DNA from: Perna viridis
Taxonomy: Eukaryota
Length of the DNA: 64,000 nucleotides
NCBI GenBank assembly: GCA_037379345.1
Contig: CM074511.1
Location: 29,456,862 to 29,520,861 of the forward strand
Direction: 5' to 3'
Part shown: one piece after another, positions 51,001-60,000 of the stretch
How the letters are laid out: every line of letters begins with the position of its first letter
Position numbering within the stretch: position 1 is the first letter of the stretch
Program-made: the position numbers

Positions 51001-54000
51001 AAGGAGTTCTCCCTGATAGGTAATTATAAAAAATTGTTTTAAACCACTTTTACACAATCAATCATTCATACCGTTAGTTTGGAATGGTATGAATGCATTC
51101 TTAATGTTTTTTGTTTGGTCAGTTTATCTCCAGAAATGTTTTAACAGAGATGAAGTTTAATATTGATCAGGGCCTCGTACTAATAAATGACCTATGGATC
51201 CTTTTGGTATTTTCTGCTTTATTGATTGCAATGTTAGTGTACTGGTGAACAGGAAATGGTTGAAGAGAATATCAGACTAAATTTTAAGTATTTGAGAATG
51301 TATGAGACTGCTATTTTCTTTATCTATTGAGTATTGTTAGGCTTGTTTATGAAAAAAAAAGTGCTGGACAGTGTTCTTGATATGAAATATTGTGGTACAT
51401 TTATTATACTCCTTTCAACAAGTAGGCATATTGGAATTACCTTGTCCATCCAAAATAGGTCGCAATTGTCTGGGCTACTAATGTCAGTGCATTGCATAAT
51501 GAAGTTTGTCAGATGATTGTCATATGATTAATCTTCTAGACCGATGCTAGTCCTTGGAAGTTAATTGCTGGGAAAGTCAATGATAATTTTTCATTTCTTC
51601 AACAGGTACAACACAAATCAGTCCATTGTGGTCAGTGCAGCAAAGAAAATTAAAGTAGGCAGAGAACTACAGCTACCTTCCATGACTGCCCTAACCAGTA
51701 AAACTTCTAGTCAGCAATTTTTCCTGAGGATATTAAAAGTCATCATACAGCTGAGAGATGCAGCTAGGTCGGTGGGGAAGAAACCATCATCGTCCTTGTC
51801 TGGTAGAGCTGGCAGATTAAGAGGTATGTCACATTTATGTTGTGTGCCACAATATTATAATGATTCAAACTTTTTTTTTCTTCAAATCTTAGGGATACAA
51901 TTAAAAATAACTTTTTCATAAAATTAACTGACTAATGATATTAAGTTTGTGAAATGACATTGATCATATTCTAGTTGTATTTTATATAGCCAGGGTTTTC
52001 ATTTTGTTTTGGAACAGCAGATAATTTTGAAAAAGCAGCAGATGGGAAAGGGTCAGACCAGGCAAAGCCTGGTGGGGGTAATCTCCTGGGATTTCAGCAT
52101 CTGAGAGGGCTTCTGGCGCCAATATTTTTATACCTTTTTTGGTATTGCATGTGTTTATTGTATTATTTTCATGTGTTAATTAATTGTGTAGTAATATACC
52201 AGAAATGACCAATGATTAATTCTATTTCTATTTTTATATTTCTATGTTGATTTACAAGGCTATGCCACATTAAAGAATATTTTCGTTTGCTCTAATCTGA
52301 CTTAAACATAGTCAAGGGTAGGTAGAAATAATCTTTTTTCCTGTTTTATTATTATTTAAAAGAAAAATCTTAGTGATGACCATGTTCTGATGTACATTGT
52401 ATTAATTCAGTTTGAAAAAAAAAAAATCCAAAAAAGGTCATTAAAAAAAATCAGTTTTGAGTAGGCAGGTATTTTGGGGTAGGTAGGGTTAGTGCAAACA
52501 AACATATTTTAAATTGTGGCCTCATCTTGTTATCTTTATCTGGTTCCTTAAATCCTAAACGCATTTCTGTGTAGACCTACTGAAACGAACACCACAGTCA
52601 CACCAGTCGACAAAGCATGACTTCTTGACTGTTGATCGCGCATAGAATAAAACCCCGAGAACATCGCTGGACCACGTTACATCTAATTACCGCATAACAA
52701 CTAATACAACAATAGACAATAACGACCCTTCAAAAAGTACGATCAGGTACTCCATGCTTGCAGTAAGAACAACTGATAAAAATTCCAAACAGCCGATAGC
52801 TGTAATCGGGAATCGGCTGAAAATGAAAACCATGTATAGCAATCAAAATGACAGTTTTTGAAAAGATTTAATAGTGGGACTTTTTTTTTCTTTCACTGTA
52901 TTTTGAATAACATTTAATTTAGATGCAACACTTCTAGAAAACATTGCTGAAGCCATGGAAGATATTGCAGCTGAAGCAGAAACAATTATGGAGATGGTAG
53001 GGAGAAGCCAGCTTCACCCACCTGTTAGCCAGCAAGAGGGCAACTCATCAAGTACTCCAGTCCAAAGTCTGAGTTCTTCTATAGAGAATACAGAGGGGGC
53101 TGCTAATTCACAGGGTTCTTCAGAATCACCTATGGATGTTGATCAACCAGGTAAACTTGATAACTAAGAAATATATTTGTCTACCTAACTGCAATTGATT
53201 TTTTTTTGGGGGGGGGTTTCTTTTTGTTTTAATGATGTTCTTTGTGTTAAAGACGGTATTAAAATGTCAGTGATTACATGGATTTAAATCTTGGTCCATG
53301 CATTTTGCTAATTGCATGTTTTGTTTTGTTTTTTTGTCAGAACTATAGGAGTGCTCTTACCAACAGCATTCTTTAAAGCTGTATCAAGTTTGAATCTGAA
53401 TTATTCTGTAGAACGCTTCTACAAGATCAAACTTGTTATCAAGCTTTCTGCAAACATAGAGAATTTCTGATTGTTGTTTTCAGTAACAACTCAGATCAGA
53501 CACTATGTAATATGAAACATCACCCTGAACCATGGTCATGTAGTTGCTCGATCAACATGTCACACTGATTTGGGTGAAACAATTGTACAAATTTATGTGC
53601 TATGATATGTGGATTAGTTTTACATAAGAAATTTTATTATCTTAATTTTATTTTACATATTGAATGATTGAAATTAACAACTTACTACATATACATCTTA
53701 ATAAGGCATTACATGTATGAATATCTATATATAGTAAATTATAAGACTGATTTAGAGTAAGTCCCTGGCAACTCATGAATTAAAATGATAATGCAAAATA
53801 ATTCTTTATCAAAGGCACATCCAGTCAAAAGGATAAGAAGGAAGAAGTGGCTTTGCCCAGACTGAGTGAGCAGTTGATGCTAGATGAGTTATGGCAGTGT
53901 CTTGGAGAATGTTTGGTTGAGTTGGACAAGACACCTGATCATCATGCTGTTCTTATTTTACAACCAGCTGTTGAAGCCTTCTTTATTGTCCACTCAGGTA

Positions 54001-57000: not shown

Positions 57001-60000
57001 TTGTTGGCAGGATTATTGCCAAGGCTATCTACGACAATAAACTTTTGGACTGTTACTTCACCAGGTCTTTCTACAAACACATTCTAGGACAGCATGTCAA
57101 GTAAGTTCTGCTTTATAAATTTTTCCTGCCACTATGTAATGGTGGGACATTCTGTATTTGTCTACTCATCTGTGTTAGTTTGTGGAGAGATTTTTTTACA
57201 ACCTTAAACAAAAATCTCAGTTGTATAATGGTATCTCCCTGTGGTTGTTGACATCTGTTAACTCTCGTTTATTCACAATAACTTGTGTAAAACTTATCCA
57301 CTTTTTTTGTTTAGAACTTCTTGTAACATTAAGACAATTATGATTCTAACTTGATCAAAAGATTTGAATAATTTTTAAGTCATAATGATGTTGAAGAGAA
57401 TGAACTGAGTTCTCAAAACATGGAGAATTTCTGATTGTTGTTTCAGTAACAACTCAGATCAGACACTATGTAATATAAAATCACCCTGAACCATGGTCAT
57501 GTAGTTGCTCTATCAACATGTCACACTGATTTGGGTGAAACAGACTGCTGTTCTACCAGTTTGTACAGACTTCTGACAGAAATATTTGGAGGGCTTAAAA
57601 TCAAAATTTTACCTTTTTTTTCTTAGATATACTGACATGGAGAGTGAGGATTACTCTTTTTACCAGGGTCTGGTATTCTTACTGGAGAACAATGTTCAGG
57701 ACCTTGGATATGAACTGACATTTAGTACTGAGGTAGGTCACAAAGTTGTTACTAGTGTGATAATAATAGGATAATTAATTGGAAAGAGTGAATATCCAAA
57801 TTATAATCACGAGTGTTAAAAAATTTAACGAGTGTGCCTAACTTGTTCTGTGCACAAGATAAATCTTAATTCATTCTTGGCACGAGTGATTATATTTTGG
57901 TTATTCACGATGACCAACTGATTATTTTATTTAATATATATATTTTTTCCTTTTTTCAATGTAAATTACTATATGAATTCAGACATCAAATCTTGTTTTT
58001 GACAGCTGTAGATTTATTTTAAAATATGTTGTTTATATTTTTGTTGTTAATGTTATATAGACGTTAAAAAACATGCGTTGCTAAGTTTGACTTGTGCTTG
58101 TGTGTCATATACATATAAAGATGCATTTAGCAATGTTTCAGTGCTATATTTAATGTATTATTTAAACTATGAATGAAAACATTTCATTAAGGAATGTCCT
58201 AAATATTGACTTTAGCTGAACCTTAACTACAACAAGCCATATCTGTTTTTTTTATTTTTTCTATGAGATATGTAATAATAATAGGATAATTAATTGGAGA
58301 GTGAATAACCAAAATATGATCACGTGTGGCAAAGAACACCTAGATTTAACAAGTTTGTGTAACTTGTTCCACGCACGAGTGATCATATTTTGGTTATTCA
58401 CAATAACCAATTGATTATCCTATTTATTTTATAGATTTCCTCCATTATTCATTGCTATTTTCTATATGAATTTTATATTTTGTAAAAGGTGGATTGATAT
58501 TTGTGTTGTGAAGTTTTGGCCGGAGAAAGTGCAACAGTAAAATTACCAATTTATTACAGTGAATTATCGATTTATTTATTTTTTTTTTTTTGGATTCATT
58601 TTTTTAACATTCAGTAAATCACTGATATCTGTATGATAACAGAAGTTACCAGATATGTGGACATTGAAAGAGTGAGATCTTGAAACATCAAAATGTGTGT
58701 TGCACATGATTTTTTTATCAGCTCACAAATAAAACTATTTTAAACAACCCTATTCAAATATTAGTATCAATATATATGAACAAATTAAATCAGCTGAAAT
58801 CTATCACATTCTTAGCATTTATTACAAACAAGCATTAAAAACTTCGTGCATTTTAGATTCAAGAATTTGGTGTGACAGATACAAGAGATCTGAAAACCAA
58901 TGGGAGAAATATACCAGTGACTGAAGAGAACAAGAAAGAGTATGTCAAACTTGTATGTCAGGAGAAAATGACAGGAGCCATCAGGAAACAACTTGGGGCA
59001 TTCATGGAAGGGTTTTATGACATTATACCAAAGAGACTAATATCTATATTTACTGAACAGGAGTTGGAATTATTAATATCAGGGTTACCAACGATTGATA
59101 TTGATGACTTGAAGGCTAATTCTGAATATCACAAATACCAGCCTACTTCATTACAGGTAAGAATTAGTCATGTTCCTTTAAGTTTACTCTTAAATGTCAC
59201 ACATTTTTATACCCCCTTCCCCTTTTTAAAATGGGGAAGTATATAGTGGTGATGGTTTCCCTTAATTTGTCTGTTCATACATTTTTATTTGTTTTCTCAG
59301 CAGTTATTTGTTATAATCTCTTGATATTTTGTCAGGTACTTTATATACATGTATGCATGCCATAATACTATAACTCGAAAACCCTTGCAGTAATGTTAAT
59401 AAACTTTGAATACATAACAGAGGTTTCATTAACTTTTTGCAATGCAGTTACCTTCTGTTTTGTAGGAGATTCTTTTGATCATTTTCTTTTATAAATATGT
59501 ACGAAGTTTTCAAATTTCAGGAGGTACCTTTCAGTAGCTTAGGAGGGTAAAAGTACCTGGTACCACCTCTTAATGAAAGGCCTGCATTGTTGTTCTCAAA
59601 TCTGTAAAGCAATGATGTTGATTTATATTCTAGGTGCAATGGTTCTGGAGAGCTCTAAGATCATTTGATCAAGCTGACAGAGCACAGTTCTTACAATTTG
59701 TAACTGGTACCTCTAAAGTTCCACTTCAAGGATTTGCCTATCTAGAGGGTATGAATGGATACCAGAAATTCCAAATACACAGAGATGACAGGTCTACTGA
59801 TCGTCTACCTGTTGCTCACACATGGTATGTCTTTGCTGGTTCAGATAAGATCTGTAATTAAGAGACTTGTGTGAAGATACTATATTATACAGATGTGATT
59901 TTCCTCAGCTTTTTTGCCTGAGAAATATAAAACCAAAATGTGCTGGATTTTATATGAGGAGCTTCAAAAAGTTTTTGCCAGACTAACTCCCCCTGTTCCA

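What the first reader, a model, noticed from the sequence alone, without database searches (positions are those of the whole stretch)
53454..57545. Family E joins a SNORA15-like Psi1367 hairpin to a Psi109 hairpin
Both pockets have 12-14 bp complementarity and canonical 14-nt spacing. In human, 18S Psi1367 is guided by SNORA15 and Psi109 by SNORA42/SNORA80 (ACA42/ACA67), which are separate RNAs. Inference: either hairpin shuffling in this lineage or an ancestral dual guide later split in vertebrates. Together with families C and F this suggests modular recombination of H/ACA halves.
Basis: partly seen in the sequence, partly recalled or inferred. Interest (0 to 1): 0.65.

Follow-up and report, generated by a model that had tools for sequence, protein, structure and literature searches.

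The report
Intronic two-target H/ACA snoRNA, three copies
Three introns of an animal HUWE1 gene each carry a copy of a small guide RNA whose two halves resemble halves of two different vertebrate guide RNAs, a kind of mixing of halves that has already been described for this RNA class.

Summary
Three near-identical, roughly 128-nt box H/ACA snoRNA genes lie on the + strand at 53454-53584, 55840-55967 and 57418-57545. Each sits in its own intron of a HUWE1 orthologue.

- **Anatomy:** each copy has two hairpins, an H box (ATATAA or ATATGA), an ACA box and two open pockets. The 3' arm of each pocket starts exactly 14 nt before its box in 3 of 3 copies.
- **5' hairpin:** scanned alone against all 4227 Rfam families, its best match is the 5' half of SNORA15 (29.2 bits, E 3e-4).
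- **3' hairpin:** its only significant match is the 3' half of SNORA42/SNORA80 (22.5 and 20.9 bits). SNORA15 is not listed for it.
- **Human targets:** a review table assigns SNORA15 to 18S-1367 and SNORA42/80 to 18S-109 and -572.

So the composite description is supported. No Rfam gathering score is reached. The species' 18S could not be obtained, so pairing with the target is inferred. The evolutionary reading (shuffling or an ancestral dual guide) could not be tested, and the general idea is already in print (Deryusheva et al. 2019). I file this as a new member of a known kind, of modest interest.

The parts
53454..53584 (+). Family E copy 1, a box H/ACA snoRNA gene. 5' hairpin 53454-53508; H box ATATGA 53510-53515; 3' hairpin 53520-53577; ACA 53579-53581. 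Pocket 1 arms 53460-53465 and 53496-53502; pocket 2 arms 53526-53533 and 53565-53571.
   Evidence: SNORA15 33.3 bits; 3' hairpin alone matches RF00406 at 20.9 bits, E 0.0055; own model 159.6 bits
55840..55967 (+). Family E copy 2. 5' hairpin 55840-55893; H box ATATAA 55895-55900; 3' hairpin 55903-55960; ACA 55962-55964. Pocket 1 arms 55846-55851 and 55881-55887; pocket 2 arms 55909-55916 and 55948-55954.
   Evidence: SNORA15 37.3 bits for the whole element and 29.2 bits for the 5' half; 3' hairpin alone matches RF00406 at 22.5 bits, E 0.0021
57418..57545 (+). Family E copy 3. 5' hairpin 57418-57471; H box ATATAA 57473-57478; 3' hairpin 57481-57538; ACA 57540-57542. Pocket 1 arms 57424-57429 and 57459-57465; pocket 2 arms 57487-57494 and 57526-57532.
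   Evidence: SNORA15 36.3 bits; own model 168.2 bits. Its halves were not scanned separately.
53815..53997 (+). Host-gene exon (ends approximate, set by eye from AG/GT and the reading frame). It follows the intron that holds copy 1.
   Evidence: window:53826-53999 matches human HUWE1 residues 3835-3891, E 2e-17; splice context
54681..54881 (+). Host-gene exon (approximate). It precedes the intron that holds copy 2.
   Evidence: open frame and AG/GT context; no Pfam match
56240..56515 (+). Host-gene exon (approximate). It follows the intron that holds copy 2.
   Evidence: matches human HUWE1 residues 3961-4053, E 1e-42
56830..57100 (+). Host-gene exon (approximate) with the start of the HECT domain. 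It precedes the intron that holds copy 3.
   Evidence: Pfam HECT PF00632, E 5e-17

Best explanation
Family E is a canonical two-hairpin box H/ACA pseudouridylation guide RNA, present as three paralogous copies. Each copy lies in the sense direction in its own intron of a HUWE1 orthologue.

Inferred from the class: each copy is released from the spliced intron by trimming down to the bound proteins (dyskerin/Cbf5, Nop10, Nhp2, Gar1). Each open internal loop then pairs with rRNA on both sides of one uridine, held about 14 nt from the H or ACA box, and dyskerin isomerises that uridine.

- The 5' hairpin is a relative of the 5' hairpin of vertebrate SNORA15. It most likely guides the 18S uridine equivalent to human 1367.
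- The 3' hairpin has the pocket of the 3' hairpin of vertebrate SNORA42/SNORA80. It most likely guides the uridine equivalent to human 18S-109.

Shown here: the anatomy, the spacing, the conservation and the half-by-half Rfam relations. Inferred: expression, protein binding, the actual targets and the modification.
For: Anatomy and conservation:
- Hairpin, H box, hairpin, ACA, with 28 base pairs that can be drawn in all copies.
- 14 nt from each 3' arm to its box in 3 of 3 copies.
- The conserved block coincides with the RNA: 94-98% identity inside against 55-62% in the flanks.
- 7 of 128 columns vary: 5 in loops or hinge, 1 in a stem where A-U becomes G-U, 1 at a free position of the H box. 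None of the 28 arm columns varies.

Rfam relations:
- Whole element to SNORA15: 33.3-37.3 bits, E 2e-4 to 2e-3 in 4.2 kb, and E 0.0035-0.029 in the whole window.
- 5' half alone to SNORA15 positions 1-68: 29.2 bits, posterior near 1. Shared letters cover the arms, the lower stem and an apical-loop hexamer, UCAGUA.
- 3' half alone (2 of 3 copies tested) to RF00406 positions 71-136 and 59-136: 22.5 and 20.9 bits. Shared letters include GAACCAU, CACUGA and the CCC/GGG lower stem.

Context:
- The host is HUWE1, with one copy per intron on the coding strand.
- Human target assignments come from PMC6466398.
- 8 bp is the stated minimum for guided pseudouridylation (abstract of PMC6049503). The arms here offer 13 and 15 nt.
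Against: - No Rfam family reaches its gathering score (0 matches; 37.3 against 47 for SNORA15, 22.5 against 70 for RF00406).
- The 3'-hairpin E-values hold for a 70-nt search. Scaled to the whole window they would not stand alone.
- The minimum-free-energy fold closes both pockets (-30.5 against -23.6 kcal/mol for the open form). In the 5' hairpin this uses a tandem TCAGA TCAGA. This is usual for such RNAs folded without proteins, but it means the open form is assumed.
- The upper stem of the 3' hairpin is irregular, with a U/U mismatch and a bulged A.
- The 3' arm of the RF00406 consensus agrees with the element only in its first four bases.
- The 18S of this species was not seen, and there are no expression data.
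- Near-identity of the copies could reflect recent copying or gene conversion rather than selection.
Confidence: 0.75

Rival explanations
1. Origin A, an ancestral dual guide. The bilaterian ancestor of SNORA15 already carried the 18S-109 pocket in its 3' hairpin. Vertebrate SNORA15 later lost it, and the job is now done by SNORA42/80.
For: - The review table gives human SNORA15 only one target, 18S-1367, so its 3' hairpin is free to have decayed.
- The 3' half of the Rfam SNORA15 consensus is mostly lower-case, meaning poorly conserved.
- Adding the 3' half raises the SNORA15 score from 29.2 to 37.3 bits.
- Loss and gain of a pocket in one half of a conserved H/ACA RNA is documented for SNORA14, SNORA25 and SNORA35 (PMC6984369).
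Against: - The 3' hairpin alone does not list SNORA15 at E up to 10.
- Posterior probabilities in the 3' half of the SNORA15 alignment are 0.3-0.6.
- The extra 8 bits can come from the ACA box and a generic hairpin.
- No outgroup was examined.
Confidence: 0.3
2. Origin B, change within this lineage. The 109 pocket came to sit behind the SNORA15-type hairpin either by exchange of a hairpin between two snoRNA genes or by point mutations that retargeted an older 3' hairpin. In the second case its likeness to SNORA42/80 is convergence forced by the shared target.
For: - Most letters shared with RF00406 lie in the arms, the lower stem and the ACA region. The upper stem and loop are not shared, as expected if the target alone imposes the likeness.
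- Target switching by point mutation and shuffling of antisense elements between families are both described (PMC6984369).
Against: - CAC just 5' of the 3' arm, which the target does not dictate, is shared with RF00406. This is a weak hint of common descent.
- No second snoRNA with either half exists in the window, and no SNORA42/80-like gene appears at E up to 0.5, so no donor is seen.
Confidence: 0.45
3. The 3' hairpin is an orphan or guides another uridine (28S, snRNA or elsewhere). The likeness to SNORA42/80 would then be misleading.
For: - 20.9-22.5 bits is far below the gathering score of 70.
- The target sequence was never seen.
- Only 4 of the 7 bases of the 3' arm agree with the family consensus.
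Against:
- The 7-nt core of the 5' arm is identical.
- The spacing is 14 nt, and all 15 arm positions are invariant in 3 of 3 copies.
Confidence: 0.12
4. Family E is a dispersed repeat or a set of snoRNA pseudogenes with no function.
For: The copies are multiple and nearly identical. Expression is unknown.
Against: - The block ends exactly at the RNA's borders.
- All three copies are in the sense direction, one per intron of one gene.
- The boxes are intact, and the variation avoids arms and pairing.
- No poly(A) tract follows the copies.
Confidence: 0.05

Closest known systems
SNORA15 (ACA15), Rfam RF00398
   Same: The 5' hairpin shares the lower stem, both pocket arms (3' arm 6 of 7 bases identical to the consensus), an apical-loop hexamer and the distance to the H box. 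The human RNA is assigned to 18S-1367.
   Different: The score is below gathering (33-37 against 47). The 3' hairpin is not recognisably the same. The host gene here is HUWE1, whereas the human host is CCT6A. There are three intronic copies in one gene.
SNORA42/SNORA80 family (ACA42/ACA67), Rfam RF00406
   Same: The 3' hairpin shares the 5' arm core GAACCAU, the start of the 3' arm with the three bases before it (CACUGA), a CCC/GGG lower stem, and the same 14-nt register to ACA. The human family is assigned to 18S-109 and -572.
   Different: Only half of the model is matched (positions 71-136 or 59-136 of 136) at 21-22 bits against 70. The 5' hairpin, which in this reading guides the other listed human site (18S-572), is absent here. 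The rest of the 3' arm differs from the consensus. Which human hairpin serves 109 is my recollection, not a result of any call.
Shuffling of antisense elements between snoRNA families (Deryusheva, Talhouarne and Gall 2019, PMC6984369)
   Same: The concept is the same: each half of a snoRNA is a unit that can evolve, be lost or appear on another RNA (abstract, discussion and Fig. 8 legend).
   Different: That work compares vertebrates. SNORA15, SNORA42 and SNORA80 do not occur in its main text (0 occurrences), and its supplementary table could not be read.

Membership tests
box H/ACA snoRNA (class) | Hairpin, hinge, hairpin, tail, with an H box (ANANNA) in the hinge | tested here: met
   ATATAA or ATATGA lies between two hairpins in 3 of 3 copies
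box H/ACA snoRNA (class) | ACA box three nucleotides from the 3' end | tested here: inconclusive
   ACA is present in 3 of 3 copies, and conservation stops at it. The 3' end of the RNA is not mapped.
box H/ACA snoRNA (class) | An internal loop (pocket) whose top lies about 14-16 nt before the H or ACA box | tested here: met
   14 nt for both pockets in 3 of 3 copies. The open loops are drawn by me; the free-energy minimum closes them.
box H/ACA snoRNA (class) | Two-sided pairing of the pocket with a target around an unpaired uridine | not testable with these tools
box H/ACA snoRNA (class) | A stable RNA bound by dyskerin, Nop10, Nhp2 and Gar1 | not testable with these tools
   There are no expression or binding data.
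SNORA15 (RF00398) | Score at or above Rfam's gathering score (47 bits) | tested here: not met
   33.3, 36.3 and 37.3 bits; 0 matches at gathering
SNORA15 (RF00398) | 5' hairpin with the family's pocket arms | tested here: met
   29.2 bits on model positions 1-68, E 3e-4, high posterior (1 of 3 copies tested alone)
SNORA15 (RF00398) | 3' hairpin of the family | tested here: not met
   SNORA15 is not listed for the 3' hairpin at E up to 10. Posterior is low in the full alignment.
SNORA42/SNORA80 (RF00406) | Score at or above Rfam's gathering score (70 bits) | tested here: not met
   22.5 and 20.9 bits, for half of the model only
SNORA42/SNORA80 (RF00406) | 3' hairpin pocket of the family | tested here: met
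   It is the only family with E below 1 for the 3' hairpin in 2 of 2 copies tested. The 5' arm core is identical and the register to ACA is the same.
SNORA42/SNORA80 (RF00406) | 5' hairpin of the family | tested here: not met
   RF00406 is not among the 4 matches of the 5' hairpin.

The most novel reading that the evidence does not exclude
The two-pocket RNA seen here is the ancestral bilaterian form of SNORA15. The 3' hairpin of vertebrate SNORA42/80 descends from it by copying of a single hairpin onto another snoRNA. That would make this a traceable, dated case of hairpin-level exchange between H/ACA genes, rather than convergence on a shared target.
Probability: 0.15. Interest if true: 0.4.

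Novelty: new member of a known kind. Interest (0 to 1): 0.2.

Why it matters
If the RNA is real and both targets hold, it adds an invertebrate data point to the picture that the two halves of an H/ACA guide are separate evolutionary units. Guide activities for conserved rRNA pseudouridines would then be dealt out differently among RNAs in different lineages. It also shows that annotating snoRNAs with whole-family Rfam thresholds misses such composites (0 matches at gathering), while half-by-half searches recover them. It does not change what is known about how these RNAs work.

Tried and rejected
- **Rfam at gathering thresholds, whole window:** nothing found.
- **Other copies or single-hairpin relatives of family E:** a covariance model of the three copies (R1), run with filters off, found only the three copies. 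The next best match is 16.6 bits, E 0.12.
- **Other repeat families, as controls and as possible partners:**
  - D1 (10641, 13410, 19187) gets only weak matches: SNORA22, SNORA35 and ceN88 at E 0.15-0.24.
  - D6 (45942, 46944) gets no snoRNA match.
  - D5/D7 (57867, 58360, 30388) look like the inverted ends of a small transposon, not snoRNAs.
  - 'SNORA15' plus '1367' gave 1 paper.
  - Drosophila Psi18S names gave 3 papers (2 listed), with no occurrence of Psi18S-110.
  - ACA15/ACA42/snR44/snR83/ACA67 gave 14 papers.
  - SNORA15/SNORA80E gave 1 paper.
  - A search on invertebrate genus names was badly chosen and gave nothing relevant.
  - A Drosophila pseudouridine paper had no per-site table in its main text.
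  - Huang 2005, Zemann 2006 and Kehr 2014 are not held.
- **My own recollection corrected:** I had recalled that yeast snR44 and snR83 serve these two sites. The Neurospora and chicken tables pair snR44 with the human 105 guides and snR83 with ACA4.
- **Pattern scan of genome contigs for the predicted target:** considered and not run. The collection holds bacteria and archaea only, and 15 specified bases would give on the order of a thousand chance matches.
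Full report
**What is there.** The finding's span runs from the first base of one repeat to the last base of its third copy: 53454-53584, 55840-55967 and 57418-57545, all on the + strand.
- The copies are 94-98% identical to one another (123/131, 123/131, 125/128). The 130 nt on each side align at only 55-62%, about what unrelated A+T-rich sequence gives under that scoring.
- The conserved block begins at the base of a 5' stem and ends at an ACA triplet.
- The window has no N. It is an animal gene region that I do not take for human.

**Anatomy.** Each copy can be drawn as follows:
- a 6-bp lower stem, an open loop and a 5+4-bp upper stem with a 9- or 10-nt apical loop;
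- then ATATAA (ATATGA in copy 1), which fits the H box ANANNA;
- then a second hairpin with a 6-bp lower stem, an open loop and an irregular upper stem (5 bp, a U/U mismatch, then 2 more pairs around a bulged A);
- then ACA.

The loop arms are AGAATT and TCAGACA in the first hairpin, and TGAACCAT and CTGATTT in the second. They are identical in 3 of 3 copies. From the first base of each 3' arm to its box there are exactly 14 nt in 3 of 3 copies.

The free-energy minimum closes both loops: -30.5 kcal/mol against -23.6 for the open drawing. In the first hairpin this happens because TCAGA occurs twice in tandem. The open form is therefore an assumption that rests on how this RNA class is known to work with its proteins.

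**Variation.** Of the 128 alignment columns up to the ACA, 7 vary:
- 5 lie in apical loops or the hinge;
- 1 is in a stem and turns A-U into G-U;
- 1 is at a free position of the H box;
- 0 of the 28 arm columns vary.

With three near-identical copies this is only mild evidence of constraint. Recent copying or gene conversion is not excluded.

**Host gene.** I searched the open frames between the copies one exon at a time. I made no joined model, so the spliced protein was not searched as a whole.
- Pfam finds HECT in three exon translations.
- Two further exon translations match human HUWE1 at residues 3961-4053 (E 1e-42) and 3835-3891 (E 2e-17).
- With AG/GT sites read by eye, copy 1 lies in the intron before the exon at about 53815, copy 2 between the exons ending about 54881 and starting 56240, and copy 3 after the exon ending about 57100.

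So there is one copy per intron, on the coding strand. The window also holds seven SNORD27-like C/D snoRNAs just under their gathering score and other H/ACA-like repeats. This HUWE1 gene is therefore a multi-snoRNA host.

**Relation to known families.**
- At Rfam's gathering scores the whole window gives 0 matches.
- With E-value reporting, the three copies match SNORA15 at 37.3, 36.3 and 33.3 bits (gathering 47). E is 2e-4 to 2e-3 in a 4.2-kb search, and 0.0035-0.029 in the whole window.
- In those alignments the 5' half has posterior probabilities near 1 and the 3' half only 0.3-0.6.
- The 5' hairpin of copy 2, scanned alone, gives SNORA15 positions 1-68 at 29.2 bits, E 3e-4. Shared letters cover the lower stem, both arms (3' arm 6 of 7) and an apical-loop hexamer. 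The other three matches have E 0.45-2.4.
- The 3' hairpin of copy 2, scanned alone, gives one real match: the SNORA42/SNORA80 family, positions 71-136, 22.5 bits, E 0.0021, posterior near 1. There is also one match at E 8.8 on the other strand. SNORA15 is not listed.
- The 3' hairpin of copy 1 gives the same single family at 20.9 bits, E 0.0055. Copy 3's halves were not scanned separately.
- Shared letters are the 5' arm core GAACCAU, CACUGA at the top of the 3' arm, the CCC/GGG lower stem and the ACA region. The remaining three bases of the 3' arm differ from the consensus. The upper stem and loop are not shared.
- As controls, two other H/ACA-like families of the window reached no better than E 0.15 (D1) or had no snoRNA match at all (D6).

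**Targets.** A review table (PMC6466398, passages seen) gives human snoRA15 the site 18S-1367 (host CCT6A). It gives snoRA42 the sites 18S-109 and -572, shared with snoRA80 (host KHDC4).
- That the 3' hairpin of SNORA42/80 is the one for 109, and that the arms here are complementary to the 18S around these two uridines, agrees with my recollection of 18S.
- The arms offer 13 and 15 nt. The stated minimum for guided pseudouridylation is 8 bp, and pockets tolerate more than two unpaired nucleotides (abstract and section headings of PMC6049503).

**Mechanism.** The best reading is an ordinary dual-target H/ACA guide. It would be trimmed out of spliced host introns, bound by dyskerin, Nop10, Nhp2 and Gar1, and would place one 18S uridine in each pocket for isomerisation. 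Anatomy, spacing, conservation and the half-by-half family relations are shown here. Expression, protein binding, targets and modification are inferred.

**Evolutionary claim.** Three origins fit the data:
- an ancestral dual guide that lost its 3' pocket in vertebrates;
- an exchange of hairpins in this lineage;
- point mutations that retargeted an older 3' hairpin, with likeness to SNORA42/80 forced by the common target.

The likeness to SNORA42/80 lies mostly where the target dictates it, which favours none of these strongly. CAC before the arm is a weak hint of descent. No other element of the window shares either half, and no SNORA42/80-like gene is seen at E up to 0.5. Deciding needs other animal genomes.

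**Novelty.** The general idea is in print. Deryusheva, Talhouarne and Gall (PMC6984369; abstract, introduction, discussion and the legend of Fig. 8 seen) propose that each half of a snoRNA evolves independently and shuffles between snoRNAs. They report that only 39% of H/ACA snoRNAs keep orthologous targets between frog and human.
- SNORA15, SNORA42 and SNORA80 are not in that paper's main text. Its supplementary table, which may list them, was closed.
- I found no paper describing one RNA that guides both sites. The library lacks the main Drosophila, nematode and deuterostome snoRNA surveys, so this is not evidence that the pairing is unreported.

**Verdict.** The composite description is supported. 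The evolutionary inference is untested and its concept is not new. Family E is a new member of a known kind.

Noticed in passing
window 8172-8239, 8843-8910, 10184-10258, 17175-17242, 18473-18542, 20744-20805, 21620-21691 (+): Seven SNORD27-like box C/D snoRNA candidates, 33.6-51.5 bits against a gathering score of 52. Some also match SNORD121A weakly. They presumably lie in upstream introns of the same host gene.
   Followed up: partly
window 10641-10780, 13410-13549, 19187-19326 (+): A three-copy, 140-nt family (91-94% identical) with H/ACA anatomy by eye: hairpin, ACAGTA, hairpin, ACA. It gets only weak Rfam matches (SNORA22, SNORA35, ceN88; E 0.15-0.24).
   Followed up: partly
window 45942-46049, 46944-47051 (+): A two-copy, 108-nt family (82% identical) that looks H/ACA-like by eye. 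It has no snoRNA match in Rfam at E up to 1.
   Followed up: partly
window about 14462-14590 (+) and 42005-42118 (+): Single H/ACA-like candidates that surfaced as weak matches (11.1 and 16.6 bits) of the family E model. The first folds into two clean hairpins with an ACA near its end.
   Followed up: no
window 57867-57979, 58360-58472, 30388-30439, with an inverted copy near 58290-58330: Repeats with a shared terminal motif in direct and inverted orientation. They look like the ends of a small non-autonomous DNA transposon in the intron after copy 3.
   Followed up: no
window 55876-55887 (and the same place in copies 1 and 3): A tandem TCAGA TCAGA in the 5' hairpin lets the upper stem form in two registers. 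One register opens the pocket and the other, the free-energy minimum, closes it.
   Followed up: partly
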